Below are positions 7,737 to 58,807 of a stretch of 64,000 bases of DNA, one piece after another (position 1 is the stretch's first letter; each line of letters starts with the position of its first letter). The notes beneath the pieces were generated by a model that was not told where the DNA came from, searched no databases, and was given only the letters and a program-made list of their open reading frames with translations. The stretch lies in contig JACRNH010000003.1 in the NCBI GenBank assembly GCA_016219325.1, forward strand, positions 45,123 through 109,122, in the 5' to 3' direction. This DNA comes from Candidatus Collierbacteria bacterium (lineage in GTDB: Bacteria > Patescibacteriota > Microgenomatia > UBA1400 > JACPES01). The position numbers were made by a program, and so were the translations under genes.

Positions 7737-7738
7737 TA

Positions 7739-7816
7739 GTCATTCCGAGCGAGTGAAACGAGCGTGGGAATCTAATTTAAGATTGCCACGTCCCGTTTGA
7801 CGGGACTCGCAATGAC
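7739..7816. repeat. MITE/REP-like element copy after lemA (divergent internal stems)
   Basis: GTCATTCCGAGCGAGTGAAACGAGCGTGGGAATCTAATTTAAGATTGCCACGTCCCGTTTGACGGGACTCGCAATGAC. Confidence 0.65.
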
Positions 7817-7822
7817 ATCAAT

Positions 7823-12559: not shown

Positions 12560-12650
12560 TGATTTATGAATTAAGATTTATGATTTATGAATAATAACGG
12601 TCTGATTCTTATATATATAGAATTCATAATTCGTAAATCTTAAATCATTG
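12560..12650. repeat. Imperfect hairpin (GATTTATGAAT-family tandem units in inverted orientation) spanning the gatCA-gatB junction
   Basis: Left arm TGATTTATGAATTAAGATTTATGATTTATGAAT and right arm GAATTCATAATTCGTAAATCTTAAATCA are near reverse complements. Confidence 0.7.
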
Positions 12651-12656
12651 CTTAAA

Positions 12657-14024
12657 ATGAAAATCAAATTAATTCCCATAATTGGCCTTGAAGTTCACGT
12701 GGAATTGAAGACGAATTCCAAAATGTTCTGCGGATGTAAAAACGATCCGTTTGGGGCTTCAAAACCGAATATTTACACCTGTCCGGTGTGTTTGGGTTTG
12801 CCGGGAGCCCTGCCGGTGCCGAATAAGAAAGCGATTGAATTAACCGTAAAATTAGGCTTAGGTTTGGGTTGTGAAATAAATCGAGAATCCCGGTTTGACC
12901 GGAAACATTATTTTTATCCGGATCTGCCGAAAGGCTATCAGATCAGCCAATATGAGAAACCGTTCGCGTCTGGCGGTGAGCTGAAATTCAGAATTCAGAA
13001 TTCAGAATTCAGAATTATAAGAGTTAGAAGGGTGCATTTGGAAGAGGATACGGGGAAATTGCTGCACCGGAAAATAGACGGTGAAGAAGTTTCTTTGATT
13101 GATTTTAACCGTTCCGGCGTGCCATTGGCGGAAATTGTGACCGAACCGGATATCAGGTCGGCGCAGGAAGCAAAAGAGACGGCTAAAAAAATTTATCAGA
13201 TTGTTAGGGCCTTGGGCGTGTCTGATGCGGATATGGAGAAGGGAAGCATGAGGTTGGAAGCGAATATCTCTCTCTCCGAGATAAAGGAAAAAGGAAAAAG
13301 GAAAAAGGAAAAAGGGGAACTTCCGGACTATAAGGTGGAGATCAAGAATATTAATTCTTTTAGATTTATGGAAAGGGCGATAAATGCGGAAATTGAGAGA
13401 CAGGAAAAAATTCTTGAGTCCGGTAAAAAAGTGCAACAGCAAACTTTTGGTTGGGATACGGAAAAACAGGAGTTGAAACCGCAAAGGGTGAAAGAAGAAG
13501 CCGCGGATTATCGGTATTTTCCGGAACCGGATATACCGCCAATCGTTTTGTCAGACGATTGGATATTAAAGATCAAAGATCAAATATCAAAATTGCCGGA
13601 AGAAATATATGAAGGATTGATTAGAACTGGAATTGCGGCAGCGGCGGCGAAGGTGATTGTGGGAGATAGGGAGTTAGCGGAGAAAATTAATGGGATAATT
13701 AGGGAAATTAAGGAGATTGGAGATATTAGGGATATTGGAAACTGGGCGTTGCATCATCAGGAGATGATTAAGGAAAAACCGGTGGATGAATTAATTTCTT
13801 TATTTAAGCAAGGGAGAGAAGGGTTAGTTTCAGATTCCGGCCAACTTAAACGATGGGTTAAGGAAGTTGTTGAAGACAATGTTCAAGCGGTGAATGATTA
13901 TAGAAAAGGCAAAGAAGCGGCATTAATGTTTTTGGTTGGACAGGCGCAAAGATTGGCTAAAGGGAAAGCTGATGTTAGTTTGGTTAAAGATATGTTAAGC
14001 TCAAAATTATCAAGTGATTTATGA
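12657..14024 (+). CDS. gatB: Glu/Asp-tRNA amidotransferase subunit B
   Basis: N-terminal IGLEVHVEL...CPVCLGLPGALP GatB signature. ATG 12657 is preferred over the ORF-track TTG at 12648. It has in-frame micro-repeats at 12986-13017 ((CAGAATT)4), 13283-13316 (AAGGAAAAAGG x3) and 13691-13740. Confidence 0.85.
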   Translation: MKIKLIPIIGLEVHVELKTNSKMFCGCKNDPFGASKPNIYTCPVCLGLPGALPVPNKKAIELTVKLGLGLGCEINRESRFDRKHYFYPDLPKGYQISQYEKPFASGGELKFRIQNSEFRIIRVRRVHLEEDTGKLLHRKIDGEEVSLIDFNRSGVPLAEIVTEPDIRSAQEAKETAKKIYQIVRALGVSDADMEKGSMRLEANISLSEIKEKGKRKKEKGELPDYKVEIKNINSFRFMERAINAEIERQEKILESGKKVQQQTFGWDTEKQELKPQRVKEEAADYRYFPEPDIPPIVLSDDWILKIKDQISKLPEEIYEGLIRTGIAAAAAKVIVGDRELAEKINGIIREIKEIGDIRDIGNWALHHQEMIKEKPVDELISLFKQGREGLVSDSGQLKRWVKEVVEDNVQAVNDYRKGKEAALMFLVGQAQRLAKGKADVSLVKDMLSSKLSSDL

Positions 14025-14117
14025 AGTATGATTTATGATTTACGAATAATATTAATTTAGTTTTCATAGATTTTCTGATTCATAATTCATAAATCGTAAT
14101 TCTTAATTCATGAATCA
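14017..14117. repeat. Imperfect hairpin of the same GATTTATGAAT family spanning the gatB stop and the dnaE start
   Basis: GATTTATGAAGTATGATTTATGATTTACGAAT ... GATTCATAATTCATAAATCGTAATTC form an inverted repeat. Confidence 0.7.
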
Positions 14118-20081: not shown

Positions 20082-20651
20082 TTAGTTATTAGTTGTTGGT
20101 GATTGGTTATTAGTGGGGGGAATAGAAATTTGACTGCTAAGGTCAATTTTTAATTTTGAAACCGTGCCGGCGGGGAGTTCTAAAACGTAGTTAACGGAAG
20201 AGGGGGAATTGTATAAAGGCAATTTGTCGTCGGTGGCGTTAGTAGGAGGGATAGGCACATTTTTATCAATTCCCGTTATTTTATTGCCGGAAATCCAGAT
20301 GATATCCAAAGGGAACATCATATCTTTCATCCAAAAAGCGGTTTGACGGGGAGGATTAATCTCAAATAACATTCCGTCTGAACCGATTTCATTTCTGTCA
20401 GAAAGCCCCTTTTGGGCTTTTTCGGGAGTTGAGGCAATTTCAACGTTTAATTCAGTATTGCCGACTTTGATTAAGCCGAATTCTGGTTGAAAAGCTGTTT
20501 CGGTTGGAGTAGGGGAAATCGTAACAGGAAAAGCGATGGCTGCAGGAGAAGAATTTAGCGTTTGCTTTTGAATATTTTGTATGGCTTTGGTTGCAAATAA
20601 ACCAGCGATAATCAGAATTAGTGAGAATAGAACCAAGCGCGTTTTATGCAT
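20082..20651 (-). CDS. DUF192 (COG1430) domain protein with an N-terminal signal/TM
   Basis: Signal-like N-terminus plus the conserved DUF192 core (GLSDRNEIGSDGMLFEF...FWMKDMMFPLDIIWI). Confidence 0.65.
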   Translation of the reverse strand: MHKTRLVLFSLILIIAGLFATKAIQNIQKQTLNSSPAAIAFPVTISPTPTETAFQPEFGLIKVGNTELNVEIASTPEKAQKGLSDRNEIGSDGMLFEINPPRQTAFWMKDMMFPLDIIWISGNKITGIDKNVPIPPTNATDDKLPLYNSPSSVNYVLELPAGTVSKLKIDLSSQISIPPTNNQSPTTNN

Positions 20652-30852: not shown

Positions 30853-31260
30853 ATGTTACTCCATCTCTCTCTTGCTACTCCTCTTAAGAAAGTTTTAGAG
30901 ATTGACGAAGTTGAAATCGTTAATGCTCCGGCGGAAATGGGTGACGTTGGAATTTTGCCGAATCATGCTCCGTTTATGTCCAGACTTAAAGACGGGGTGA
31001 TAAATTACCGGATCGGGGGAAATAATTTTTATGTCGGAGTTAACGGAGCCTTTATGGATGTAGCCGAAAATCAGGTGACTATAATTTCTGAAGCCGCAAT
31101 TTTGCCGGAGGACGCTGATTTAAAAAGAGCTCAAGAAGCAAGGGATAGGGCGAAGGCTGAATTGGAAAAAAGACTGGAAGGAACAGATTTTAAGATGGTG
31201 GAAGCGGAGTTGAGAAAAGCGCTTTTAGAGATGAAATTATTGGAGCACGTTAAAAAATGA
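30853..31260 (+). CDS. atpC: F0F1 ATP synthase subunit epsilon
   Basis: Size, position and a beta-sandwich plus helical-hairpin pattern consistent with the epsilon subunit. Confidence 0.75.
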   Translation: MLLHLSLATPLKKVLEIDEVEIVNAPAEMGDVGILPNHAPFMSRLKDGVINYRIGGNNFYVGVNGAFMDVAENQVTIISEAAILPEDADLKRAQEARDRAKAELEKRLEGTDFKMVEAELRKALLEMKLLEHVKK

Positions 31261-31337
31261 GTAATGAGTAGAAAGTAATGAGTAATGAATAAAATAACAT
31301 TATTTTCTACTTTCTATTTTCTACTCATTATTTTTTT
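31259..31337. terminator. AGTAATGAG/TAGAAAGTA-family inverted-repeat hairpin followed by a T7 tract (a likely intrinsic terminator after atpC)
   Basis: GAGTAATGAGTAGAAAGTAATGAGTAATGAAT ... ATTATTTTCTACTTTCTATTTTCTACTCATTA then TTTTTTT immediately before the ruvC ATG. Confidence 0.6.
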
Positions 31338-31826
31338 ATGATTATCTTAGGCATTGACCCCGGATTTGCCAGAATGGGATGGGGAGTAATCAGCAAAAAC
31401 GGCGCAAAATTTTCACTGGTAGCTTACGGATGTCTGGAGACTTCTGCCGATGTCGGTTTGCCAGACAGGTTGGAAATGATATTTGACGGGATTCTCAAAG
31501 TAATAAAGAAGTACAAGCCGGATTTGGTCGGCATAGAAACTCTTTTTTTTAACACTAACGCCAAAACCGCGGTCAAGGTAGGGGAGGCGAGGGGAGCGAT
31601 ATTGGTGGCGCTGAAAAAAGCCGGAATTAAATCAGCGGATCTGACTCCTCTTCAAGTGAAACAAGCTGTAGCTGGTTACGGCCGGGCGGAAAAATCTCAA
31701 GTCCAAAAAATGGTTAAGACCTTGTTAAATCTAAAAGAAATCCCCCATCCTGACGACGCCGCCGACGCTTTAGCCATCGCCCTCGCTGCTGGATCAATTG
31801 TAAAGTATCAGATACTTTACAACTAA
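31338..31826 (+). CDS. ruvC: Holliday junction resolvase RuvC. Its last 8 codons are supplied by a palindromic repeat.
   Basis: N-terminal ILGIDPGFARMGWGVI with the catalytic Asp, and C-terminal DDAADALAIAL. The terminal IVKYQILYN is encoded by the 25-bp palindrome at 31798-31822. Confidence 0.85.
   Translation: MIILGIDPGFARMGWGVISKNGAKFSLVAYGCLETSADVGLPDRLEMIFDGILKVIKKYKPDLVGIETLFFNTNAKTAVKVGEARGAILVALKKAGIKSADLTPLQVKQAVAGYGRAEKSQVQKMVKTLLNLKEIPHPDDAADALAIALAAGSIVKYQILYN
31798..31822. repeat. Palindrome copy 1 (TTGTAAAGTATC A GATACTTTACAA), forming the 3' codons of ruvC
   Basis: Perfect 12-bp arms with a 1-nt spacer. Confidence 0.9.
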
Positions 31827-31846
31827 TATTTGCAAATATAGTTCGT

Positions 31847-32575
31847 TTAATCTTCAGCATCAATCGCAACTGGACGAAGAAGCGTTGAATCTGAATTAGA
31901 AAATTGAGCCTCAACAAATTCGCGGTATTCAGTAGGTCTGTTTCTGAATAATCCAATAACAAACTTTGGCTTTGAAATAGAGAAAGGGGTTTTAGTCGGG
32001 AAGAGATAGTAGTCGTTAATATTGCTCCATTGCCAATTTTCCGGTTTGTTAACCAGTCCGGCCATGGTAGGGTTAATATGGATATATCTGGATACATGCA
32101 TGACTCGTTCGTCCGTATCTAGTTCTTTGATCTTAAACCTTCCCTGAAATAGCGGCCCAACTCGTTGATTATCGTGATTAAATTTATGAGCGTATGTTAT
32201 TCCAATCCGTTTCATGAATTCCGAGATTGGAGACTGTAAAGTATCTGATACTTTACAGATGCGAATAAGGAAATGGAAATGGTTTGGCATTAAACAATAA
32301 GCCAGAAGTTCGATAATGTTTTTGAACATACCGTTGCCTTTAGGATCAGCTGTAAACGAAACAGGCTTATTTTTCATTCTCCAGCGCATCGAAAATGGCG
32401 ATTGATGCTGTAAGGTATCAGATACTTTACAGTCAGGGAAGCCAATTAAAAAATAACGCAGAATTTCGCGGAAGTCAAAGTAGTCAGACTCCCTTTTGAA
32501 TATTTTCCGCCTATTTACCCCGCGGTTATAGACATGATAAATTCCGTTTTCGTGATAATCAGGCCTAATATACAT
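31847..32575 (-). CDS. tnpA: IS200/IS605-family Y1 (HUH) transposase / REP-associated tyrosine transposase-like protein
   Basis: YHVYNRGVNRRKIF N-terminal motif, HUH motif (MPNHFHFLI) and the catalytic Tyr region (RYIHINP). The ORF-track start at 32836 is a stop-free upstream extension, so ATG 32575 is used. Confidence 0.75.
   Translation of the reverse strand: MYIRPDYHENGIYHVYNRGVNRRKIFKRESDYFDFREILRYFLIGFPDCKVSDTLQHQSPFSMRWRMKNKPVSFTADPKGNGMFKNIIELLAYCLMPNHFHFLIRICKVSDTLQSPISEFMKRIGITYAHKFNHDNQRVGPLFQGRFKIKELDTDERVMHVSRYIHINPTMAGLVNKPENWQWSNINDYYLFPTKTPFSISKPKFVIGLFRNRPTEYREFVEAQFSNSDSTLLRPVAIDAED
32234..32258. repeat. Palindrome copy 2 (CTGTAAAGTATC T GATACTTTACAG), in-frame inside tnpA and encoding CKVSDTLQ
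   Basis: Perfect 12-bp arms. Confidence 0.9.
32408..32432. repeat. Palindrome copy 3 (CTGTAAGGTATC A GATACTTTACAG), in-frame inside tnpA and encoding CKVSDTLQ
   Basis: 12-bp arms with 1 mismatch. Confidence 0.9.
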
Positions 32576-32586
32576 ATGTGGATAAG

Positions 32587-32609
32587 TGTAAAGTATCAGA
32601 TACTTTACA
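32587..32609. repeat. Palindrome copy 4 (TGTAAAGTATC A GATACTTTACA), 12 nt upstream of the tnpA ATG
   Basis: Perfect 11-bp arms. Confidence 0.9.
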
Positions 32610-32696
32610 AGAAGACAAGATGCGAGAACGTCTATCGGTTGGATAGAACTATCGGGTGAGTAGAATAAAGCGACCAGAATAATAATTTTACGAAAT

Positions 32697-34741: not shown

Positions 34742-34742
34742 T

Positions 34743-34818
34743 GTCATTCCCGCGAAAGCGGGAATCTATATAAATAATTATCTTATCTACATAGATTCCG
34801 TGTCGAGCACGGAATGAC
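34743..34818. repeat. MITE/REP-like element (GTCATTCC-hairpin-GGAATCTAT ... ATAGATTCC-hairpin-GGAATGAC), full copy after ruvB
   Basis: GTCATTCCCGCGAAAGCGGGAATCTATATAAATAATTATCTTATCTACATAGATTCCGTGTCGAGCACGGAATGAC. Confidence 0.75.
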
Positions 34819-34827
34819 AATGACAAT

Positions 34828-35783
34828 ATGAAGTTATTTATTAAGCTATTAGTCACTATTTGTATTTTAGGAGCGCTTAAGCCAGAACCAATATTTGCAG
34901 CCGCGGAAAATAAACTTGGGATTCATATTCTGGAGACGGAAGAATTAGGCGAAGTGTCCAAGCTTTTCCCGGATGGCGGCTATATAACCGTTCCGGTAAG
35001 ATTGGACCAGCTGGAGGCATCAAAGTGGCAAAAATTTTTTGACGAGTCGGATAAATTTCGGTTTATTCCGATAATTAGATTTGCGACCAGCCACAACGGA
35101 AAATATTGGGAACGGCCGACAAAACGCGATATCGTAAATTTTGCCGATTTCTTCTCCAAGCTTGATTGGCACAGGCAGGAGTTAATTGTGATCGCCTTTA
35201 ATGAACCAAATCACGCTCCGGAATGGGGCGGAAAAGTTGACCCGGATAATTACGGCCAAAGCCTGACTTTTCTGGTTAATTGGTTTGCGACAGAACCGAA
35301 AAAATATTTAGTTCTTCCGGCGGCCCTTGACGCTGCTGCTTCCAATACTGACACGACTATGAGTTCAAATTTATTTCTTGACAAGTTGCTATCTAAATTC
35401 CCCGCAACAATTAATAGCCTTTCCGGCTGGAACAGTCATGCTTATCCCAATCCCGGATTTACCGGCCGGCCGGTTGATTATCATAAAATGAGCGTTAGGT
35501 CTTATCAATTCGAACTGGAAACTATTAAGAAAAGAATTGGAAAGGACTTGTCTGTTTATATCACTGAAACAGGCTGGGATAATACCAAAAAGAATGACAG
35601 TTTGATCGCCGGATATTTTAAGTTTGCTTACGAAAATATCTGGTACCCTGACAGAAAAGTGGCGGCGGTAACCCCATTTTTATTCAACGCCCAAACGATG
35701 CCTTTTTCCGCCTTTTCTCTTCTGGATGATAACGAAAAACCGACAATGGTTTATGAGATGATACAGAAATTAGGAAAGGAATT

Positions 35784-35787: not shown

Positions 35788-36202
<415 letters not shown>

Positions 36203-36916
36203 ATGATATACATTTTGCATGGTGACAATATTGACGCCAGCCGGAAATCGTTTATTGAGACGATTGCTGAATTAAAAGCCGGCGGAATTGAAGAAGTCGT
36301 TAGATTAAACGGAGCAGAAATTGTCCAGTCCGATTTAATCCAGGCCTTAGAATCGCAAAGTCTTTTTGGCGGCGATAGAATTGTAGCTATAGAAGGCATA
36401 TTTTCCCGCCGCGTTTCCAAAGAGAAAGAAGCATTGTTAATATATATTTCTTCGCAACTCGCAACTGGCAATTCGCAATTAGCCCTTTTATTGTGGGAAG
36501 GAAAAAAGATTTTAGCAACCGGATTAAAAAAATTTACAGGTAAGCCTGGTGTGGAGATTAAAGAATTTAAATTGCCGCGGCTTTTATATACTTTTTTGGA
36601 CCGGATTTATCCCAAAAACGGGAAATCGGCTTCCGTCATATTTAATCAACTGATAGCCGAAGAGCCGGTTGAATTAGTTTTTTATTGGATGGTAAAACGG
36701 ATAACGGAATTGATTCTGGAAAATTCGCCATCAGGATCCGGCGGCGGTTATGACGATTGGAGAAGGCAAAAATTAATGGATCAGGCGTCAAGGTGGACCG
36801 AAAAAAGTTTAATTAATTTTCATAAAAAATTAACAGAAATTGATGAAGCCGTTAAAACCGGCTCCACCCCATCGGATTTATCATCCCACCTTGACATTGC
36901 CTTGTTAAGTTTGTAG
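36203..36916 (+). CDS. holA: DNA polymerase III delta subunit-like (HolA-like) protein
   Basis: N-terminal IYILHGDN...SLFGGDRIVAI pattern resembling clamp-loader delta. At 237 aa it is short. Confidence 0.45.
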   Translation: MIYILHGDNIDASRKSFIETIAELKAGGIEEVVRLNGAEIVQSDLIQALESQSLFGGDRIVAIEGIFSRRVSKEKEALLIYISSQLATGNSQLALLLWEGKKILATGLKKFTGKPGVEIKEFKLPRLLYTFLDRIYPKNGKSASVIFNQLIAEEPVELVFYWMVKRITELILENSPSGSGGGYDDWRRQKLMDQASRWTEKSLINFHKKLTEIDEAVKTGSTPSDLSSHLDIALLSL

Positions 36917-40096: not shown

Positions 40097-41069
40097 ATTT
40101 CCTGAATAATTTAAGGTCGGTTTTAACCACTGAATTCCAACCGGGGGTTAAGTTGTGGTCGGCTCCGGGATATTGATAGAGTACGGCATCTTTCTTCAGC
40201 GACTGTAAATTGCTGATTAGATCCATAGACCATTTCCACGGGACCGCTTCGTCGCCGGTGCCCTGATGAACAATCAGCGGAGTTTCTATCCGGTCAAGAT
40301 AATTGGTCGGGGAAAACAGTTCCGGATCATAAATTGACTCAAAATCGGCAATAACTTTCCGCAGGTATTTTCCGTGGTCGTCTGAATCATCCGTATAGTA
40401 AAGAATTGAATAAGGAAAAGGTTTGGAGACCGGGGCCCAAAAAGTAGCCGCCTTAAATTTATTGGTGACAGCCAGAACGGAAAGCCCGATCTGCCCGCCA
40501 TTGGAATGCCCCCATAAAAATATATTTCCCGTATCCGCCACTTGCAGATTGGAAATTGATGCTAATAATTGGAGAACGGTTGCCGGTTTGATCAGGCGGG
40601 ACTCAATTTCGTTTTCCGGTTCCGGATCCGAACTGCCGAACCCCAAAAAATCCGGAGCTAAAGTTATAAATCCGTTGCCGGCGAAAAACTCAGCCGCTCT
40701 TTGGGTTCCGATTCCGGGCTTATAGATTTCTTTGTCGACATATCCCCGCAGCATAATTATCACCGGACATTTTTGTTTAGAAGAAGAACCGTAGCCAACC
40801 GGAATGTTGGCAGTTCCGCTGACCAAGCCTTCTTGGGTATCAAATGTAAATTGGCCGTCTGTCAGAGAGATAGCCTTGGGGGTAAAAACGGATTGTTTCA
40901 AACCGTCAAATGAATATTTAAGCAAAGGCCGTGGGATTGTGGTTGGAGCTGAGGATAAGGGGGACAGGGACAGTCCTCCGATCAGCATCCCAATGACAAA
41001 TAAACAAAACAAGAGAAAGTATTGTTTCATTTTTTTCTTAAGCATTAAGTATACAGCTTTCATTGTCAT
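40074..41069 (-). CDS. Alpha/beta-hydrolase (dienelactone hydrolase / prolyl oligopeptidase-like), membrane-anchored
   Basis: N-terminal TM, nucleophile elbow GHSNGG (GxSxG), and downstream Asp/His (GTGDEAVP...ADHNL). Confidence 0.7.
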   Translation of the reverse strand: MTMKAVYLMLKKKMKQYFLLFCLFVIGMLIGGLSLSPLSSAPTTIPRPLLKYSFDGLKQSVFTPKAISLTDGQFTFDTQEGLVSGTANIPVGYGSSSKQKCPVIIMLRGYVDKEIYKPGIGTQRAAEFFAGNGFITLAPDFLGFGSSDPEPENEIESRLIKPATVLQLLASISNLQVADTGNIFLWGHSNGGQIGLSVLAVTNKFKAATFWAPVSKPFPYSILYYTDDSDDHGKYLRKVIADFESIYDPELFSPTNYLDRIETPLIVHQGTGDEAVPWKWSMDLISNLQSLKKDAVLYQYPGADHNLTPGWNSVVKTDLKLFRKFTSPSGL

Positions 41070-41123
41070 TCCTGCGAAAGCAGGAATCTATTTAAATAGA
41101 TTCCGGATCAAGTCCGGAATGAC
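41065..41123. repeat. MITE/REP-like element copy (GTCATTCCTGCGAAAGCAGGAATCTATTTAAATAGATTCCGGATCAAGTCCGGAATGAC)
   Basis: Same termini and centre as the 34743 copy, with compensatory substitutions in both internal stems. Confidence 0.8.
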
Positions 41124-52194: not shown

Positions 52195-53041
52195 GCCATC
52201 TTTAAATTCATTTAATACTTCCATCTTTCCCACCTGGTGTCCGGGGTGCGGGGATTTTGGAATTTGGGGAGCGTTAAAACAAGCCCTGGAATCATTAAAA
52301 ATAAATCCGGATCAAGCGGCATTTTTTTTCGGAGTCGGTTGTTCTGGAAACATTTCCAGTTTTATCAGAGGTTATGGTTTTCATTCACTTCACGGCCGGA
52401 GTATTGCCAATGCCGCCGGGGCTAAACTGGCTAATTATAAACTTCCTGTTATCGTAATCGCCGGTGACGGTGATATGTTGGGAGAAGGCTTAAGCCATTT
52501 TATTCACGCTGCCCGGGCCAATCATGACATTACAATAATTTTACATAATAATGGGGTATTTGGATTAACAACCGGCCAATCCTCGCCTACTGCCGAAATC
52601 GGATTTAAATCAAAACCGATGCCTTGGGAAACTACGGATGAACCGATAAACCCTTGCGCTCTGGCAATTATGCAGCAGGCCGGATTTGTATCACGGGGCT
52701 TTGCCGGGGATCAGGAAGGCTTATCCAATTTGATCAATCAGGCGATCAATCATTCGGGCTTTTCATTGGTTGATGTTCTTCAGCCCTGTGTTACATTTAA
52801 TCCGGATAAATCATACATTTGGTACAGGCAGAGAATAAAGTCTGTTGAGTCTGTTACAAGCGATGTTTTGACCGGGATTAAAAATTCATTATGGATTGAC
52901 GAGCGAATATCAACCGGAATTATTTATCAAAACTCAAGGCCCGCGTTCCATTCTAACTATCCACAATTGGTTAAAGATAATCTATTGGATACGACCGGGA
53001 AAAAGAGAGATATAAGTAAATTGCTGAATGGATTTAAATAG
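52193..53041 (+). CDS. 2-oxoacid:ferredoxin oxidoreductase beta subunit (TPP-binding)
   Basis: N-terminal Cys cluster (CPGCGDFG) and a TPP-binding GDG-(X)n-N motif (GDGDMLGEG...LHNNGVFGLTTGQ). Confidence 0.8.
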   Translation: MPSLNSFNTSIFPTWCPGCGDFGIWGALKQALESLKINPDQAAFFFGVGCSGNISSFIRGYGFHSLHGRSIANAAGAKLANYKLPVIVIAGDGDMLGEGLSHFIHAARANHDITIILHNNGVFGLTTGQSSPTAEIGFKSKPMPWETTDEPINPCALAIMQQAGFVSRGFAGDQEGLSNLINQAINHSGFSLVDVLQPCVTFNPDKSYIWYRQRIKSVESVTSDVLTGIKNSLWIDERISTGIIYQNSRPAFHSNYPQLVKDNLLDTTGKKRDISKLLNGFK

Positions 53042-53064
53042 ATTCCCGCTTTCGCGGGAATGAC
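53038..53064. repeat. MITE/REP-like half element (ATAGATTCCCGCTTTCGCGGGAATGAC) after the oxidoreductase beta gene
   Basis: Matches the right half of the 34743 element, with the stem in the complementary orientation. Confidence 0.7.
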
Positions 53065-53066
53065 AG

Positions 53067-53696
53067 TTAATTAACCACAGGGTGGAATTTGCGGATAACG
53101 CCCACAACTTTTCCCTGAACTCTGACGCGGGTGGCGAAAATCGGCTGCATCTGGGAGTTTGCCGGTTCCAGCCTGATTCTGGTGGCTTCGCGGAAAAATC
53201 TTTTTAAGGTGGCCAATCCATTGTCTAAAAGGGCAACGACTATGTCTCCGTTATGAACCTCATCCTGTTCTTCAACGACTACATAATCTCCGTCAAGAAT
53301 TCCATCGTCAATCATTGATTGGCCTTTGACTTTTAAAACGTAAGCCCGGCGTTTTCCGGATAACATGTCAGGCGAAATGGATAGCGTAGTATGAGGATCT
53401 GCAAACGGGACAATCGGCGATCCGGCAGCGATAAATCCCATTACAGGCAATTCTACTCCGGTTGAAGTTTTGGAAATCTTGCGGTCGATTAATTCGATTC
53501 CGCGGACGGTGCCTTCATACTTTTTAATAATTCCTTTTCTGATTAAAGCTTCTAAATGTTCGTGGACTGTGGCTAAAGAAGTGACTCCCAATGCTATGGC
53601 AATTTCCTGTAAAGTAGGGGAATATCCGTGCTGCTGGATATATTGTGATAAAAATTCTACAATTTGTCTTTGGCGTCTGTAAAGTGTTACTGGCAT
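53067..53696 (-). CDS. lexA: LexA repressor
   Basis: N-terminal winged HTH and a C-terminal S24 peptidase (GDYVVVEEQDEVHNGDIVVALLDN, with catalytic Ser/Lys). It is divergent from uvrB. Confidence 0.85.
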   Translation of the reverse strand: MPVTLYRRQRQIVEFLSQYIQQHGYSPTLQEIAIALGVTSLATVHEHLEALIRKGIIKKYEGTVRGIELIDRKISKTSTGVELPVMGFIAAGSPIVPFADPHTTLSISPDMLSGKRRAYVLKVKGQSMIDDGILDGDYVVVEEQDEVHNGDIVVALLDNGLATLKRFFREATRIRLEPANSQMQPIFATRVRVQGKVVGVIRKFHPVVN

Positions 53697-53776
53697 TTGG
53701 GTTATATTATTTTAACGTTTGTGTCATCTTAGCCCAAGCTTAGGCGAACTGTCAAGAGGCAAAAACGCTATCAAAC

Positions 53777-56005
53777 ATGTTTAAACTACATTCACCATAT
53801 CAACCGACGGGGACACAACCGCAGGCAATTGCCAAACTTTCTGAATTGATTTCCGGAGGAAACCGGCATCAAACCCTGCTCGGGGTGACCGGTTCCGGCA
53901 AAACATTTGTGACGGCAAATGTTATCGCTAAACTTAATAAACCGACTTTGGTTATCGCCCACAATAAAACTTTAGCCGCTCAATTGTATCAGGAGTATAG
54001 GGATTTTTTCCCGGAAAACGCGGTTTCCTATTTTGTCAGCTATTACGACTATTATCAGCCGGAGGCCTATATTCCCCAGACCGACACTTATATCGAAAAG
54101 GAAACAGATATAAATGAAATGATTGATAAATTGAGGTTAAAAGCCACCGCCAATCTGGTTTCCCGCCGAGATGTGATAGTTGTTGCTTCCGTTTCTTGCA
54201 TTTATAACTTGGGAGAACCGCAGGAATATTTAAAGAGAGTTTTGAAATTGAGTCTGGGCCAGAAAATCACTTTGAGAGAGCTATCCGAAAAACTAGTTGA
54301 TTTAATGTACGTAAGATCGCAGATGGAATTATCAAGGTCAAACTTTAGAATCAGAGGAGACTGTTTGGATATCTGGCCGGCATACGAGGATTCGGTATTG
54401 AGAATTGAGATTGTGTCAGACAAAATAAAATCGATTTGTTGGCTCGACCCTATTTCTCTATTTCCTGATCCAAAACTAATAACTAATAACCAACAACCAA
54501 CAACTGTTGCTATTTACCCCGCCAAACACTACATTGCCGATTCTAAAGATATGCTGCCGGTATTTGCCCGGATTAGAAATGACCTGCGTTTAAGGGCAAA
54601 ACAATTAGAGGCAGGCGGCCGTGATCTGGAGGCAAAAAGATTGGTTCAAAAAGTGGAATATGATTTAGCGATGATTCAGGAATTGGGATACGTCAACGGG
54701 ATTGAAAATTATTCCCGTTACTTTGACCACCGTAATCCCGGCGATCCGCCATTTACTTTATTGGACTATTTTAAACAGTGCGATCCGAATTTTTTAACGG
54801 TTATTGACGAATCCCACATCACTCTTCCGCAGATAAAAGGAATGTTTAAAGGCGACCAGTCACGGAAACAAACATTGATTGATTTTGGTTTTAGATTGCC
54901 GGCTGCAATGGATAACCGGCCATTGCAATTTGATGAATTTTTGGGAAGAGTTAATCAGACGATTTATACGTCGGCAACGCCGGGAGATTGGGAGTTGGCA
55001 AAAAGCAATGAGCAGAAAACAAAGAGCAATGAGCAAAGAACAAATAGCAACAGAGTTGTGGAATTGTTGGTTAGACCGACGGGATTGATTGACCCGGAAA
55101 TTGAGGTTAGAAACGCCCAAAATCAGGTTCCGGATTTGGTGATGGAAATTTTAAAGCGCAAAGCCAAGAATGAGCGGGTTCTGGTGACGACTTTGACAAA
55201 AAAAACCGCTGAAGCCCTGGCTGAATATTTATCGGATGAAAATAAATTAAAAACTGTTATCGGTTCTCGGTCATCGGATTTCGGTTACCAGTCTTCCGGT
55301 TATCAGTTTGCCGGTCTTAAGACCGATAGACTGAAAACAGATAAACCTGAGACTGAAAACAGAAAACTGAAAACCGATAACAAATCTATATCTGATTTGC
55401 CCAAAGTGGCTTATCTCCACTCCGATATCAAAACCCTCGACCGTCAGGATACTTTGGATAAGTTGAGAAGGGGAGAAGTGGACGTGATTGTCGGGATCAA
55501 CCTATTGCGGGAAGGTTTGGATCTACCGGAAGTATCACTGGTTGCGATATTAGACGCCGATCAGGAAGGATTTTTAAGAAGCAAGACGAGCTTAATCCAA
55601 ACTATGGGGAGAGCCGCTCGTCATATTGACGGAAAAGTTATTCTTTATGCCTATAAAATCACCGATTCAATGAGCGAAGCGATTGATGAATCTGAAAGAA
55701 GACGGAAGGTTCAGATTGAATATAACTTGAAGCATAATATTTTCCCAAAGGGGATAAATAAGCCGGTGAGGGAGAAGTTAGTTGATAGAAGTCAGGAATT
55801 GGTGGCTGAAATTGATTTGCCGAAAGGAATCTCCAATAGATACGGGGTTAAAAAATTGGATGATTTAGATTTGAATTCTTTGTCTCCGCAGGATAAACAG
55901 TCAATGATCAAACATTTAAGAAAACAAATGCTGTCTGCCGCCGATAAACTAAACTTCGAAAAGGCGGCTGAAATTAGAGATAAAATCACAGAAATGAAAA
56001 GTTAA
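53777..56005 (+). CDS. uvrB: Excinuclease ABC subunit B with two in-frame repeat inserts
   Basis: Walker A (GVTGSGKTFV), helicase motifs and a C-terminal UvrB/UvrC interaction motif (EKAAEIRDKI). The inserts are at 55003-55060 and 55255-55385. Confidence 0.9.
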   Translation: MFKLHSPYQPTGTQPQAIAKLSELISGGNRHQTLLGVTGSGKTFVTANVIAKLNKPTLVIAHNKTLAAQLYQEYRDFFPENAVSYFVSYYDYYQPEAYIPQTDTYIEKETDINEMIDKLRLKATANLVSRRDVIVVASVSCIYNLGEPQEYLKRVLKLSLGQKITLRELSEKLVDLMYVRSQMELSRSNFRIRGDCLDIWPAYEDSVLRIEIVSDKIKSICWLDPISLFPDPKLITNNQQPTTVAIYPAKHYIADSKDMLPVFARIRNDLRLRAKQLEAGGRDLEAKRLVQKVEYDLAMIQELGYVNGIENYSRYFDHRNPGDPPFTLLDYFKQCDPNFLTVIDESHITLPQIKGMFKGDQSRKQTLIDFGFRLPAAMDNRPLQFDEFLGRVNQTIYTSATPGDWELAKSNEQKTKSNEQRTNSNRVVELLVRPTGLIDPEIEVRNAQNQVPDLVMEILKRKAKNERVLVTTLTKKTAEALAEYLSDENKLKTVIGSRSSDFGYQSSGYQFAGLKTDRLKTDKPETENRKLKTDNKSISDLPKVAYLHSDIKTLDRQDTLDKLRRGEVDVIVGINLLREGLDLPEVSLVAILDADQEGFLRSKTSLIQTMGRAARHIDGKVILYAYKITDSMSEAIDESERRRKVQIEYNLKHNIFPKGINKPVREKLVDRSQELVAEIDLPKGISNRYGVKKLDDLDLNSLSPQDKQSMIKHLRKQMLSAADKLNFEKAAEIRDKITEMKS

Positions 56006-56026
56006 ATGTTATCTTTGTCATTCCGT

Positions 56027-56083
56027 GCTTGACACGGAATCTATACAGATTTCATCTCAAGGCTGGAATGGCATAAATATCCT
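56027..56083. repeat. MITE/REP-like element copy after uvrB (left half intact, right half degenerate)
   Basis: GTCATTCCGTGCTTGACACGGAATCTATACAGATTTCATCTCAAGGCTGGAATGGCA. Confidence 0.7.
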
Positions 56084-56109
56084 CGGGTATAATTAGATCT
56101 CAAAAATTT

Positions 56110-58800
56110 ATGGAAAACTATATTGAGGTTATTGGGGCCAAACAACATAATCTTAAGAATATCAGTGTTAAAATTCCCAAGAATAAACTGACGGTGATTA
56201 CGGGTGTATCGGGGAGCGGGAAGTCATCACTGGCGTTTGATACCATTTTTGCCGAAGGTCAAAGGCGGTATGTTGAGTCTTTATCTTCATATGCCAGGCA
56301 ATTTTTAGGGGTAATGAACAAACCGGACGTGGATAAGATTATCGGCTTGTCTCCGGCGATTGCCATTAACCAAAAAGCGGTTTCCAGCAATCCCAGAAGC
56401 ACTGTCGGAACTGTGACAGAAATCTATGATTATTTAAGAGTGTTATATTCCCGCGCCGGCCATCCTCATTGCGAAAAATGCGGCCGGGAAGTTAAACGCC
56501 AGTCCGTTGATCAAATTTCCGATTCAATTTTGGATCAGGCTAAATTATCGGCAGTTGGCCAAAAACCTTGCCTAATCGAAATATTTTCACCAATTATTGT
56601 TGATAAAAAGGGTGAATTTACCCAACTGTTTGAATCGTTGCGCCGGGATGGTTTTAAAGATGTTACCGTTGACGGCCAGAAGTTCAATCTTAATCATAAT
56701 TTTGTTTTAATCAAAACCAACCGCCACACCATAGAATTATCCGTTGATAAAATTTCAGTCACTAAAAAAGATTTTAAAAATCCTGACGGGCTTAAACTTA
56801 TTTCATCAAGGCTCTCTGAAACTGTTGAAATAGCTTCAAAAAAGTCAGGCGGGACGCTGCTGATCCAATTTGACGGTAAAGACAAAACTCTATTTTCCCA
56901 AAGCTTCGCCTGCCCAGTTTGCAATATCTCCCTGCCTGACATTGAGCCGCGGAGTTTTTCGTTTAACACCCCTTACGGGGCTTGTCCCGAATGCGATGGA
57001 TTAGGGACAATTCTTTCGGCCGATCCTGAAGCAGAAGAAAAAATTCCTAATTTGTTAAACCGTTATCTGGAAACCGACAATGAGGCAGTCAGAAAACGCT
57101 TAATCCCGTTTATCATAACCTCCGTTTGCCCCAGTTGTAATGGACAAAAGCTTAACAAAATTTCCAGAAATGTTACTGTGGCCGGAAAAAATATTGCCGA
57201 GATATCAAATTTAGCTGTTAAAGACTGTTTAAGCTTTATTGAGAAGCTTAATAAATCAGATGCCTTTTCGCCTCAAGAATCAGCGGTTTCAACTCCGATT
57301 GTCCGGGAACTTTCGATCAGATTAAAATTTTTAATTGACGTTGGTCTGGAATATTTAACTTTAGGCAGGACAGCCTCTTCTCTTTCATCCGGAGAAGCTC
57401 AAAGAATCAGGCTGGCTTCGCAAATCGGGACAGGTTTAACAGGGGTTTTATATGTTTTGGACGAGCCGACGATTGGCTTGCATCAACGGGATAATTCAAA
57501 ATTAATTCAGATTTTAAAATCATTAAGAGACTTGGGAAATACAGTCTTGGTAGTTGAACATGATCAGGAAACCATAGAAAACGCGGATTGGATGATTGAA
57601 ATCGGTCCAAAGGCCGGGAAAAATGGCGGGGAAATCATCGCGGAAGGAACAGTTGAAGATATTAAAAATAATAAAAAATCGTTGACTGGGGATTATTTGG
57701 CAGGAAGGAAGAAAGTAGAAATACAAAAGGTTAAAAGGTTAGAAGGTTACAAGGCTAATAAAATAGATTTTTCAACCTGCCAACCTGCCAACCTGCCAAC
57801 CTTAGAGTCCATTAAGCTCTCCGGCGCCTCCCAGCATAATTTAAAATCAGTTGACGTTGAATTCCCAATGGGCAAATTCATTTGCGTCACAGGCGTGTCA
57901 GGATCAGGAAAATCAACTTTGGTTCATGACACCCTTTATCATGCTCTTGCCCGAAGATTAAACCGCTATCATCACACCACTCCGGGAAAATTTGAAAGTT
58001 TTTCATTGCCGAATACCGTTAGCCAGGTCAGTTTGATTGATCAAAGCCCGATTGGGCGAACGCCGAGATCTAATCCGGCTACATACAGCGGAGTATTTGA
58101 CTATATCCGCCAAATTTTCAGCCAAACAAAAGAATCTAGAATCAGAGGATGGAAATCAGGCCGTTTCAGTTTTAACATCCCGGGAGGCAGATGCGAAACC
58201 TGTGAAGGCCAAGGACAAATAAAAGTTGAAATGCAGTTTATGCCGGATGTCTATGTTATCTGTGACGACTGTAAGGGAACAAGGTTTGGGCGTGAGACAT
58301 TAGAAGTCGTTTATTCCGGTAAAAATATTGCCGAAATTTTAAATTTAACCATAAATGAGGCCTGCGAAATGTTTGCCGGCTTTCCGGCCCTAAAATCAAG
58401 GTTGTTAATGTTAAGATCCGTAGGTTTAGGTTATTTAAGCTTAGGCCAGCCGGCGACAATTTTATCCGGCGGAGAAGCCCAAAGGATGAAATTATCCCGG
58501 GAGTTGGGGAAAATCAGGTCAGCCCATACTATATATTTACTGGATGAACCAACCACCGGGCTTCATTTTGACGATTTGCAGAAACTGATCGAAGTTTTAT
58601 TGAAACTTGTAAATCAAAATAATACCGTAATTGTGGTTGAGCACAATCTGGACGTTATCAGAAACGCCGAATGGATAATTGATCTTGGGCCCGAAGGCGG
58701 GGATGAGGGAGGAGAGATCGTTGCTGTCGGAACGCCGGAGCAAATAGCAAATAATCCTAAAAGTTATACTGGAAGATATCTCAAAAAACTAATAAACTAA
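56110..58800 (+). CDS. uvrA: Excinuclease ABC subunit A with an in-frame hairpin-forming insert in the inter-module linker
   Basis: Two ABC ATPase modules (GVSGSGKSSLAFDT; GVSGSGKSTLVHDT), zinc fingers (CPVCNISL, CETCEGQG) and ABC signatures. The insert is at 57726-57812. Confidence 0.9.
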   Translation: MENYIEVIGAKQHNLKNISVKIPKNKLTVITGVSGSGKSSLAFDTIFAEGQRRYVESLSSYARQFLGVMNKPDVDKIIGLSPAIAINQKAVSSNPRSTVGTVTEIYDYLRVLYSRAGHPHCEKCGREVKRQSVDQISDSILDQAKLSAVGQKPCLIEIFSPIIVDKKGEFTQLFESLRRDGFKDVTVDGQKFNLNHNFVLIKTNRHTIELSVDKISVTKKDFKNPDGLKLISSRLSETVEIASKKSGGTLLIQFDGKDKTLFSQSFACPVCNISLPDIEPRSFSFNTPYGACPECDGLGTILSADPEAEEKIPNLLNRYLETDNEAVRKRLIPFIITSVCPSCNGQKLNKISRNVTVAGKNIAEISNLAVKDCLSFIEKLNKSDAFSPQESAVSTPIVRELSIRLKFLIDVGLEYLTLGRTASSLSSGEAQRIRLASQIGTGLTGVLYVLDEPTIGLHQRDNSKLIQILKSLRDLGNTVLVVEHDQETIENADWMIEIGPKAGKNGGEIIAEGTVEDIKNNKKSLTGDYLAGRKKVEIQKVKRLEGYKANKIDFSTCQPANLPTLESIKLSGASQHNLKSVDVEFPMGKFICVTGVSGSGKSTLVHDTLYHALARRLNRYHHTTPGKFESFSLPNTVSQVSLIDQSPIGRTPRSNPATYSGVFDYIRQIFSQTKESRIRGWKSGRFSFNIPGGRCETCEGQGQIKVEMQFMPDVYVICDDCKGTRFGRETLEVVYSGKNIAEILNLTINEACEMFAGFPALKSRLLMLRSVGLGYLSLGQPATILSGGEAQRMKLSRELGKIRSAHTIYLLDEPTTGLHFDDLQKLIEVLLKLVNQNNTVIVVEHNLDVIRNAEWIIDLGPEGGDEGGEIVAVGTPEQIANNPKSYTGRYLKKLIN

Positions 58801-58807
58801 TAACCGA

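What the first reader, a model, noticed from the sequence alone, without database searches (positions are those of the whole stretch)
34743..34818. MITE/REP-like intergenic repeat family with compensatory base changes in its hairpin stems
There are five copies at 7739-7816, 34743-34818, 41065-41123, 53038-53064 and 56027-56083, all immediately 3' of genes (lemA, ruvB, the hydrolase, OFOR beta, uvrB). They share invariant termini GTCATTCC and GGAATGAC and an invariant centre GGAATCTAT(W)ATAGATTCC. The internal stems differ by paired substitutions: CCGCG-AAA-GCGG versus CTGCG-AAA-GCAG, and CCGTG-TCGAG-CACGG versus CCGGA-TCAAG-TCCGG versus CCGTG-CTTGA-CACGG. Covariation of this kind indicates the structure is selected. 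Candidate roles are a terminator, a small RNA, or a transposase recognition hairpin.
Basis: seen in the sequence. Interest (0 to 1): 0.6.

Follow-up and report, generated by a model that had tools for sequence, protein, structure and literature searches.

The report
Known hairpin repeat (CGTC-REP/NTS) family
The repeats are real, but they belong to an already described, bacteria-wide family of small DNA hairpin repeats (CGTC-tagged REPs, also called dRS3/NTS/SRM), here in a Candidatus Collierbacteria genome, so the finding is mostly ordinary apart from one copy sitting in frame inside the uvrC repair gene.

Summary
The repeat family is real. The 64-kb window holds six loci with 10 intact modules and 1 decayed module; dinucleotide shuffles give 0.02 modules. 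The unit is a hairpin module: (T)GTC tag, stem ATTSC...GSAAT, variable self-complementary top, then C-TA tail. Five loci are tag-outward inverted dimers and one is a single module. The compensatory changes hold up: across 64 modules from many phyla, 96.5% of cells pair, three stem pairs covary, and G-U is almost absent. The family is already described as CGTC-tagged REPs (Di Nocera 2013), equivalent to Neisseria dRS3/NTS and 'Ssn-related motifs' (Chenal 2025). Those are bound and cut as single-stranded DNA by the small GIY-YIG nuclease SsnA. Two window modules match the NTS consensus at 26 of 28 positions. No ssnA gene occurs in the roughly 69 kb I could read, so the partner in this genome is unverified. 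The RAYT-like transposase 2 kb away is flanked by a different palindrome. New details are the CPR host and a uvrC linker hot spot with turnover among relatives.

The parts
7739..7772 (+). E1 left module: AGTC tag, ATTCC...GGAAT base, 20-nt GAGCGA...GAGCGTG insert, tail TAA
   Evidence: The top folds poorly alone, but the whole dimer 7735-7820 folds with z -5.5. It starts 3 nt after the lemA stop codon.
7781..7816 (-). E1 right module: TGTC tag, ATTGC...GCAAT base (GC variant), 22-nt insert with a GTCCCG/CGGGAC top hairpin
   Evidence: DNA fold -10.4 kcal/mol, z -3.9. It ends 6 nt before the ATG of the M48 peptidase gene.
34743..34766 (+). E2 left module: TGTCATTCCCGCGAAAGCGGGAATC-TAT (8-bp stem, GAAA loop). 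It matches the NTS consensus at 26/28 positions and the published SRM search string.
   Evidence: z -5.0. It starts 1 nt after the ruvB stop codon. Logan contig L001 breaks inside it.
34794..34818 (-). E2 right module: TGTCATTCCGTG-CTCGA-CACGGAATC (8-bp stem, 5-nt loop)
   Evidence: It is separated from the left module by a 27-nt AT-rich spacer. The next ORF's ATG follows 9 nt later.
41065..41088 (+). E3 left module: TGTCATTCCTGCGAAAGCAGGAATC, with C-G to T-A compensated relative to E2
   Evidence: z -6.5. It overlaps the predicted ATG of the minus-strand hydrolase gene, so the element lies between divergent genes.
41099..41123 (-). E3 right module: TGTCATTCCGGA-CTTGA-TCCGGAATC, with two pairs compensated relative to E2 and E5
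   Evidence: z -3.8
53041..53064 (-). E4 single module, identical to the E2 left module. Its 3-nt tail (53038-40, just outside these core coordinates) overlaps the last two bases of the TAG stop codon of OFOR-beta (53039-41); the module lies between the convergent OFOR-beta and lexA genes.
   Evidence: The orthologous site in relative L123 has no module and the two genes overlap.
56017..56041 (+). E5 left module: TGTCATTCCGTG-CTTGA-CACGGAATC
   Evidence: z -5.9. It starts 11 nt after the uvrB stop codon.
56048..56072 (-). E5 right module, decayed: GCCATTCCAGCCTTGAGATGAAATC no longer folds
   Evidence: z +0.6
61314..61357 (+). E6 left module (GC variant with a long top hairpin), in frame inside uvrC. 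It encodes VIARSPGQIGTTRQS.
   Evidence: uvrC domains flank it.
61369..61403 (-). E6 right module (GAGCGA...GAGCGTG type). It encodes ...FPRSLSFARND. The whole E6 is 90 nt, or 30 codons.
   Evidence: Orthologous sites in relatives are empty or hold other modules.

Best explanation
These are members of the bacteria-wide family of small palindromic repeats described as CGTC-tagged REPs. The same family includes Neisseria dRS3/NTS, Rickettsia RPE-4/-6 and the 'Ssn-related motifs' (SRM). The instance here is in a Candidatus Collierbacteria (Patescibacteria) genome.

The unit is a hairpin read as single-stranded DNA. It has an unpaired 5' tag (T)GTC, a conserved stem base ATTSC/GSAAT, and a free top that must only stay self-complementary and can be 10 to more than 40 nt. 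An unpaired C(TA) tail follows. Units mostly sit as tag-outward inverted dimers.

The most likely working mechanism is inferred by homology with the Neisseria and Wolbachia systems. When the DNA is single-stranded (replication, repair or DNA uptake), the module folds. A small GIY-YIG nuclease of the Ssn family then binds the hairpin base plus the flanking C and cuts a few nucleotides 5' of the tag.

What is shown here: the anatomy, the covariation, the pan-phylum distribution, the match to the NTS consensus, and presence/absence turnover among relatives, including in-frame occupancy of a uvrC linker. What is inferred: that an Ssn-type enzyme exists and acts in this genome. How the copies multiply is unknown for the whole family.
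For: Anatomy: there are 10 intact modules against 0.02 in shuffles. Short modules fold as an 8-bp stem with a 4- or 5-nt loop and unpaired tag and tail, with DNA z-scores of -3.8 to -6.5.

Hosts include Chloroflexota, Patescibacteria, Gamma- and Alphaproteobacteria (including Rickettsia and Tisiphia), Bacteroidota, Helicobacter, Clostridia, Planctomycetota, Nitrospirae and Omnitrophota.

Covariation: across 64 distinct modules, 96.5% of cells pair against 87.8% in shuffles (0/500 reach it). The three unconstrained stem pairs show 18, 8 and 8 double changes. Slid controls pair at most 52%. Only 1 G-U occurs among the 192 cells of the three variable pairs. Ten different fully paired stem triplets occur with 4-nt loops and seven with 5-nt loops.

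Literature: CGTC REPs are defined with a TGTC variant, 8-9-bp stems starting AT, loops of 4-5 nt, a 3-nt tail, predominant tag-outward (HH) dimers, intragenic copies of 20-30 aa concentrated in uvrA/uvrB and other repair genes, and dRS3 and RPE-4/-6 as members (PMC3733652). The NTS is CGTCATTCCCGCGMAVGCGGGAATCYRG. It is bound and cut only as ssDNA by SsnA. The 3 nt upstream of the palindrome are needed for cleavage, the C after it for binding, and the loop is dispensable and extendable (PMC11893778).

Window match: modules at 34742 and 53038(-) fit the published SRM string (2 hits against 0.11 in shuffles). SsnA-like genes lie in two of the fetched loci, one of them (L065) directly beside a dimer.

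Mobility and turnover: a syntenic 21-kb stretch of relative L123 has no module at all, and L125 has one decayed copy.
Against: No cd10448/SsnA-like ORF was found by tblastn in the 64-kb window or the 5-kb extension L121. None was found in 42 kb of two relatives either. The rest of the genome could not be read, so the partner enzyme is unverified here.

Only 2 of 10 modules satisfy the strict published SRM search string. The tail is CTA rather than the CCA consensus of CGTC REPs. The GSAAT/ATTGC long-insert modules, and the two GAGCGA...GAGCGTG modules that fold poorly alone, are not covered by the experimental work.

Covariation counts come from sequences selected by a pattern that fixed the outer five stem pairs. 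Many of the sequences may also share descent.
Confidence: 0.6

Rival explanations
1. REP/REPIN mobilised by the RAYT-like Y1 (HUH) transposase encoded at window 31847-32575(-). The hairpins would be its recognition and cleavage sites.
For: A Y1_Tnp/REP-associated tyrosine transposase-like gene lies 2 kb from E2. It keeps the HUH motif and the catalytic Tyr. Tag-outward inverted dimers resemble REPINs.
Against: The gene is flanked, and interrupted in frame, by a different palindrome, TGTAAAGTATCWGATACTTTACA, which occurs only there in the window. A 45%-identical homologue in relative L123 sits at another locus, with its own co-varying palindrome and no GTCATTCC modules in 21 kb. None of 118 element-bearing loci encodes a homologue. 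The repeats carry a (C/T)GTC tag, not GTAG. Di Nocera et al. found no transposase association for CGTC REPs.
Confidence: 0.08
2. RNA-level element: a terminator, mRNA 3'-end stabiliser, translational modulator or small RNA, selected for its RNA hairpin.
For: Four of the six loci start 1-11 nt after, or overlap, a stop codon. Predicted RNA folds are strong, with z -2.9 to -7.8. E1 and E2 end 6-9 nt before the next ATG, so they could affect translation initiation. Di Nocera et al. argue that many REPs are transcribed.
Against: No T-run follows any module, and none of E4-E6 is called by the terminator scan. E3 lies in a divergent promoter region and E6 inside a coding sequence. There is no Rfam family hit. 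Variable stem pairs are almost purely Watson-Crick: 1 G-U among 19 non-Watson-Crick cells, where 2 of 12 non-Watson-Crick combinations are G-U. Conservation is concentrated in unpaired oriented flanks, which match the positions SsnA needs on ssDNA, and SsnA does not bind the RNA form.
Confidence: 0.17
3. Miniature inverted-repeat transposable element derived from an insertion sequence, moved in trans by a DDE transposase through its terminal inverted repeats.
For: Dimers have 8-12-bp inverted termini (TGTCATTSC...GSAATGACA), lengths of 56-90 bp and a dispersed distribution.
Against: No consistent target-site duplication is seen at the six loci. The filled-versus-empty comparison at OFOR-beta/lexA only suggests a possible TTAA repeat across roughly 70%-identical genomes. 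Single modules exist (E4). The two halves of a dimer are usually different modules. No IS with these ends occurs in the window or the loci. The same unit is shared across more than 15 phyla.
Confidence: 0.04
4. Passive landing sites: the hairpins persist because IS110/Piv-type recombinases or filamentous phages use them as integration targets, as described for dRS3 in Neisseria.
For: dRS3 belongs to the same family. Use of dRS3 by Nf prophages is cited in PMC11893778 (reference 30).
Against: No IS110/Piv-like gene or prophage junction abuts any of the six loci. Being a target does not explain how the repeats arise, or why the oriented flanks are conserved.
Confidence: 0.05

Closest known systems
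CGTC-tagged REPs, families CGTC-1 and CGTC-2 (Di Nocera, De Gregorio & Rocco 2013, BMC Genomics 14:522)
   Same: Both have an unpaired (C/T)GTC tag, an 8-bp stem beginning AT, a loop of 4 nt (GAAA) or 5 nt (CTTGA), and a 3-nt unpaired tail. Both form mostly tag-outward (HH) hetero-dimers with short spacers. Both lie next to stop codons, with occasional in-frame copies of 20-30 aa in excision-repair genes, and no linked transposase.
   Different: The tail here is CTA rather than CCA. The host is a Patescibacteria/CPR genome, a phylum not in that survey. Half of the modules here and in the fetched loci have long inserts (15-45 nt) or the ATTGC/GCAAT base, beyond the 4-5-nt loops used to define the families.
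Neisseria dRS3 / NTS and Ssn-related motifs with the SsnA GIY-YIG ssDNA nuclease (Chenal et al. 2025, Nat Commun 16:2388)
   Same: TGTCATTCCCGCGAAAGCGGGAATCTAT matches CGTCATTCCCGCGMAVGCGGGAATCYRG at 26/28 positions. The conserved positions are the same (3 nt 5' of the palindrome and the C 3' of it), and the hairpin top is free. The family is widespread across phyla.
   Different: No ssnA was seen in the sequence available. Most modules fail the strict SRM string. Copies are dispersed as dimers between and inside housekeeping genes, rather than in large clusters around surface-protein genes. Any role in transformation is untested in this organism.
Rickettsia palindromic elements RPE-4/RPE-6 (protein-coding palindromes)
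   Same: Both are in-frame insertions of the palindromic repeat in an essential or repair gene, tolerated in a linker between domains. Di Nocera et al. equate RPE-4/-6 with CGTC-4/-1.
   Different: Only one of six loci here is intragenic. Expression of the UvrC insert is not shown.
GTAG REPs / REPINs with RAYT transposases
   Same: Both are short hairpins with an unpaired tag, organised as inverted dimers. A RAYT-like gene is present in the window.
   Different: The tag is GTC, not GTAG, and the RAYT-like gene is flanked by another palindrome. It is not a member.

Membership tests
CGTC-tagged REP | Unpaired 5' tag CGTC (or TGTC/CCTC) next to the hairpin | tested here: met
   Nine of 10 intact modules carry TGTC and one carries AGTC. 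The tag is unpaired in the DNA folds.
CGTC-tagged REP | Stem of 8-9 bp starting with A-T and T-A, loop of 4-5 nt | tested here: met
   Six short modules have the stem ATTCCNNN with a GAAA or CTYGA loop. Four long-insert modules keep only the 5-bp base plus an extended or decayed top.
CGTC-tagged REP | Short unpaired 3' tail (consensus CCA) | tested here: inconclusive
   A tail is present and conserved, but it reads CTA in 8 of 10 modules, CTG once and CTT once. Across 306 modules, C-TA[T/A/G] dominates, though the C (and, in at least one module per locus, the TA) was fixed by the search patterns.
CGTC-tagged REP | Predominantly tag-outward (HH) dimers, often heterodimers | tested here: met
   Five of six loci are HH dimers and all are heterodimers. 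The definition of HH is given.
CGTC-tagged REP | No flanking dedicated transposase | tested here: met
   None lies next to any of the six loci. The RAYT-like gene has other flanks.
NTS / Ssn-related motif system | Sequence fits the NTS consensus or the SRM search string HGTCWYN(0-2)YYVSBRHN(0-5)WNVSBRGN(0-2)RNCYNB | tested here: inconclusive
   Two of 10 modules fit the SRM string, against 0.11 expected, and these two match the NTS at 26/28 positions. The other eight fail at the restricted stem positions.
NTS / Ssn-related motif system | A cd10448 single-domain GIY-YIG (ssnA) gene in the genome, often flanked by the motif | tested here: inconclusive
   tblastn with two SsnA-like queries found only the UvrC GIY-YIG domain in the window, and nothing in L121, L123 or L125. 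About 69 kb of the source genome and 42 kb of relatives were readable. L065 and L086 act as positive controls.
NTS / Ssn-related motif system | Strand-specific binding and cleavage as ssDNA, not dsDNA or RNA | not testable with these tools
   This needs the enzyme and oligonucleotides. Indirect support is Watson-Crick-only covariation.
REPIN / RAYT system | GTAG tag, and the RAYT gene flanked by the same REPs | tested here: not met
   The tag is GTC. The RAYT-like gene is flanked by TGTAAAGTATCWGATACTTTACA.
Intrinsic terminator | GC-rich hairpin followed by a T/U run | tested here: not met
   No T-run follows the modules. None of E4-E6 is called by the scan.
MITE | Terminal inverted repeats plus a fixed target-site duplication and a related autonomous IS | tested here: not met
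   No consistent duplication is seen at the six loci and no parent IS was found.

The most novel reading that the evidence does not exclude
The Collierbacteria copies may be actively turning over at a fixed hot spot, the uvrC linker. Among relatives that site is empty (possibly with a footprint), or holds different dimers, or holds five stacked half-copies. Short junction duplications, consisting of the tag plus 10-18 nt placed directly 5' of an intact module, recur in four phyla. Together these could be the signature of the still unknown multiplication mechanism of CGTC REPs/dRS3/RPEs. That mechanism might act at the Ssn cleavage position just upstream of the tag, possibly with a divergent or absent SsnA in CPR bacteria.
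Probability: 0.15. Interest if true: 0.6.

Novelty: new member of a known kind. Interest (0 to 1): 0.3.

Why it matters
The repeats should be annotated as CGTC-REP/SRM hairpins, not as MITEs, terminators or sRNAs, and not as the spurious peptides they generate (for example ...FARNDK). This extends a family with a newly characterised ssDNA nuclease partner to a CPR/Patescibacteria genome. In that group, single-stranded DNA uptake and repair are thought (from my own background knowledge, not checked here) to be central to lifestyle. The orthologous uvrC linker, with empty, filled and stacked states in close relatives, is a convenient natural series for asking how these repeats insert and decay, which is unresolved for the whole family.

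Tried and rejected
- Rfam at gathering thresholds found only five tRNAs.
- RAYT linkage was rejected. tblastn of the window RAYT against 118 element loci gave nothing, and its flanks are another palindrome.
- The ssnA search (tblastn with a remembered UPF0213-like consensus, an SsnA-like ORF from L065 and a cd10448-like consensus) hit only L065 and L086, plus UvrC-type N-terminal GIY-YIG stretches in the window (uvrC) and in L054.
- Attempts to read the rest of the 123,865-bp source contig through window-end proteins returned only short Logan contigs, adding 5 kb. A third billion-sequence protein search for SsnA was not spent, because its top-120 list cannot be directed at this genome.
- No supplementary tables of the Ssn paper are held, so I could not check whether CPR genomes were in their lists.
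- The canonical terminator reading was rejected: the scan does not call the modules.
- Target-site duplication was checked by eye at the six loci and in one filled-versus-empty comparison. It gave only an ambiguous TTAA.
- The strict SRM regex captures only 2 of 10 modules, so it is a poor detector here.

Full report
**What is there.**
Reading the five stated places shows a common unit that I call a module. It consists of (T)GTC, then ATTSC, then a variable insert, then GSAAT, then C and usually TA.

ATTSC pairs with GSAAT, and the insert is itself self-complementary. The short modules therefore fold as an 8-bp stem with a 4-nt (GAAA) or 5-nt (CTTGA/CTCGA) loop. The GTC tag and the CTA tail stay unpaired. 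DNA-parameter folds give -7.6 to -9.0 kcal/mol, with z from -3.8 to -6.5.

A locus is normally two different modules in inverted orientation with the tags outward, separated by 6-27 AT-rich bases.

Searching GTCATTSC gave 13 hits against 3.5 expected. Three further hits are isolated chance matches inside ORFs.

The full module expression finds 10 intact modules against 0.02 in 200 dinucleotide shuffles. An eleventh module, at 56048-56072, is decayed.

**Corrections to the observation.**
- Copy 5 starts at 56017, not 56027, and ends at 56072.
- The termini are not invariant: GCAATGAC occurs at 7816 and GGAATGGC at 56072.
- The 'invariant centre' is simply the two module 3' ends facing each other across a spacer.

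Placement relative to genes (ORF map, Pfam):

| Locus | Position relative to genes |
|---|---|
| E1 | Fills the lemA / M48-peptidase gap |
| E2 | Fills the ruvB / next-ORF gap |
| E3 | Between divergent genes, overlapping the predicted ATG of the hydrolase, so it is 5' and not 3' of it |
| E4 | Single module between convergent OFOR-beta and lexA; its 3-nt tail overlaps the last two bases of the OFOR-beta TAG stop codon |
| E5 | Between uvrB and uvrA |
| E6 | 90 nt, exactly 30 codons, in frame inside uvrC |

E6 lies between the UVR motif (aa 220-248) and the RNase H-like endonuclease domain (from about aa 298). It encodes VIARSPGQIGTTRQSIKDRFPRSLSFARND.

**Is the structure selected?**

To get beyond six loci I scanned the species-representative genome collection for the dimer pattern GTCATTSC-N7-30-GSAATCTA-N0-30-TAGATTSC. 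By my own estimate, roughly 26 chance matches would be expected in the whole collection.

These loci come from Chloroflexota, Patescibacteria, Gamma-, Alpha- and Zetaproteobacteria, Rickettsia and Tisiphia endosymbionts, Bacteroidota and Ignavibacteria. They also come from Helicobacter, Clostridia, Planctomycetota, Nitrospirae, Omnitrophota, Elusimicrobia, Spirochaetia and others.

Together with the window they hold 306 modules with 221 different inserts of 8-42 nt.

I then took 64 distinct modules with a 10-nt insert. The hairpin pairs in 96.5% of cells, against 87.8% in shuffles (0 of 500 reach it) and at most 52% when the partner is slid. The three stem pairs not fixed by my search pattern show 18, 8 and 8 changes on both sides.

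Ten different fully complementary inner stem triplets occur with 4-nt loops, and seven with 5-nt loops.

Only one G-U occurs among the 192 cells of the three variable pairs, that is among 19 non-Watson-Crick cells there. This is no more than chance, so the constraint looks like DNA-type Watson-Crick pairing rather than RNA pairing. That is an inference, not a proof.

Two caveats apply. The outer five pairs were fixed by ascertainment, and many sequences may share descent.

**What it is.**
A full-text search for the sequence itself and for dRS3 led to two papers.

*Di Nocera et al. 2013 (PMC3733652)* define CGTC-tagged REPs by the following features:
- a terminal CGTC, often TGTC;
- stems of 8-9 bp starting with A-T and T-A;
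- loops of 4 nt (family 1) or 5 nt (families 2-4);
- 3-nt unpaired tails;
- predominantly HH dimers, defined as tags outside, often as heterodimers.

They place these repeats next to the 3' ends of ORFs. They also report in-frame intragenic copies of 20-30 aa, concentrated in uvrA, uvrB and other repair genes, and no associated transposase. Neisseria dRS3 and Rickettsia RPE-6/RPE-4 are listed as members.

*Chenal et al. 2025 (PMC11893778)* extend dRS3 to the oriented 28-nt NTS, CGTCATTCCCGCGMAVGCGGGAATCYRG. They show that the 94-aa GIY-YIG protein SsnA (cd10448) binds it and cuts a few nucleotides upstream. This happens only on the forward strand as ssDNA, not on duplex DNA or RNA.

In their assays the three nucleotides 5' of the palindrome matter for cleavage, and the C just 3' of it matters most for binding. 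The loop can be removed or extended. Homologues with similar repeats ('Ssn-related motifs') occur across phyla, and 71% of ssnA homologues have a motif nearby.

The window's A-type module, TGTCATTCCCGCGAAAGCGGGAATCTAT, matches the NTS at 26 of 28 positions. It satisfies their degenerate SRM string at 34742 and 53038(-), giving 2 hits against 0.11 in shuffles.

The conservation pattern here is just what their mutagenesis predicts: fixed GTC, a fixed stem base, a fixed 3' C, and a free top that can be extended.

Two of the fetched loci, L065 and L086, contain an SsnA-like ORF. In L065 it lies about 60 bp from a dimer.

**What is not established.**
The source is a Candidatus Collierbacteria contig of 123,865 bp.

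I found no SsnA-like ORF in four places:
- the 64-kb window, where only UvrC's own GIY-YIG domain scores;
- the 5-kb extension L121;
- the 21-kb syntenic stretch of relative L123;
- the 21-kb syntenic stretch of relative L125.

The family assignment is therefore firm (about 0.9). The claim that an Ssn-type nuclease reads these copies in this organism is inferred (about 0.5).

Eight of the ten modules fail the strict SRM string, and the tail is CTA rather than CCA. The ATTGC/GCAAT long-insert modules (E1, E6) lie outside what has been tested biochemically.

**Rivals.**
*RAYT mobilisation.* A RAYT-like Y1 transposase gene lies at 31847-32575(-). It is flanked at 31799 and 32587 by an unrelated self-complementary 23-mer, TGTAAAGTATCWGATACTTTACA. 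That 23-mer also occurs twice in frame inside the gene and nowhere else in the window.

In relative L123 a 45%-identical homologue sits elsewhere, between uvrB and uvrA. It has a co-varying version of that palindrome, and the 21-kb locus holds no GTCATTCC modules.

None of the 118 element loci encodes a homologue. This fits the 'TIRYT/TIRtron' arrangement described by Di Nocera et al. and argues against RAYT mobilisation of the GTCATTCC family.

*Canonical terminator.* This is not supported. No T-run follows the modules, and none of E4-E6 is called by the scan. E3 lies in a divergent promoter region and E6 in a coding sequence.

*Secondary RNA effect.* Such an effect, on mRNA 3' ends or on translation of the tightly abutting downstream genes of E1 and E2, cannot be excluded.

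*MITE.* This reading lacks target duplications and a parent IS.

**Comparison with relatives.**
An alignment of close UvrC homologues, and the DNA of five of them, shows the same linker in several states:

| Relative | State of the uvrC linker |
|---|---|
| L123/P0130 | Short (also short in P0126 and P0128 at protein level) |
| L129/P0122 | Same dimer as the window, with a longer right module |
| L128/P0123 | A different dimer |
| L125/P0129 | A decayed dimer |
| L127/P0125 | Five stacked left tags and two right tags, 216 nt in total |

The 'empty' L123 allele reads CTGAT-GTTGTT-AATGAC. This looks like joined element termini, so it may be a deletion footprint rather than a naive site. That is an inference.

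At the OFOR-beta/lexA junction, L123 has no module and the two genes overlap.

The syntenic 21 kb of L123 contains no module at all. L125 contains one, and the window's equivalent stretch contains three loci.

**Verdict.**
The finding is a real repeat family with real compensatory stem changes. However, it is an instance of an already described and recently mechanistically characterised kind.

The new elements are modest: the CPR host, the frequency of long-topped and GC-base modules, and the uvrC linker hot spot with stacked half-copies. Interest is 0.3, and the novelty rating is new member of a known kind.

Noticed in passing
window 31796-32610 (gene 31847-32575, minus strand); L123 4425-5245: A RAYT/TIRYT-like Y1 transposase gene is flanked by the self-complementary 23-mer TGTAAAGTATCWGATACTTTACA. 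It carries two more copies in frame inside itself, encoding CKVSDTLQ, one of them right after the HUH motif. Homologues of 60-86% identity keep the second insert. A 45%-identical homologue in a relative sits at a different locus, with a co-varying palindrome (TGTGAAGTTTACGAAACTTCACA) outside and inside the gene. It looks like a mobile 'TIRtron' whose own recognition palindrome has colonised its coding sequence.
   Followed up: partly
window 61281-61430; L123 10556-10645; L125 10556-10720; L127 569-784; L128 2722-2838; L129 3089-3250: The uvrC linker just before the RIEGYDISH endonuclease motif is a hot spot. Depending on the relative, it is short, holds different hairpin-repeat dimers, or holds five stacked left halves plus two right halves. 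The short allele reads GAT-GTTGTT-AATGAC, as if the element termini had been joined.
   Followed up: partly
L020 2812, L045 3204, L059 6987, L083 2660 and 5302, L127 596-675 and 756(-): A truncated 5' half of a module (tag plus 10-18 nt, sometimes including the upstream flank as a roughly 20-nt tandem duplication) sits directly 5' of an intact module. This occurs in genomes of four phyla. The mechanism is unexplained.
   Followed up: partly
window 31251-31337, 44710-44804, 36146-36209, 6113-6156; also 12560-12648 and 14013-14117: Long AT-rich inverted repeats are built from short units (AGTAGAAAGT, AATGAGTAATGAG, GATTTATGA). They sit at gene ends and form 27-40-nt arms. They are possibly this organism's real terminators, or another repeat class.
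   Followed up: no
window 424-495 and 13688-13750; 387-431, 20085-20129, 54475-54504(rc): Tandem 9-nt repeats (AATTAGGGA-like) and GTTGTTAGTTGTTGG tracts recur at several places. A Logan contig (L120) breaks at one of them.
   Followed up: no
window 60510-60735; L123 and L125 9767-10001: The uvrC reading frame, with an intact GIY-YIG motif, overlaps the upstream transglutaminase-like ORF by about 166 nt. Public gene calls start uvrC at Met76 and so cut off half of the nuclease domain. The upstream frame is open and conserved in two relatives.
   Followed up: partly
window 53067-61871: A DNA-repair cluster runs lexA, uvrB, uvrA, a transglutaminase-core protein and uvrC, and it is conserved in relatives. 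Three of the six repeat loci lie in it and a fourth follows ruvB. This echoes the published bias of intragenic REPs towards repair genes.
   Followed up: no
window 7817-7825 and 34819-34830: The downstream genes of E1 and E2 start 6-9 nt after the repeat (…AATGACATCAATATG and …AATGACAATGACAATATG), with no visible Shine-Dalgarno sequence. The hairpin would therefore abut the initiation region.
   Followed up: no
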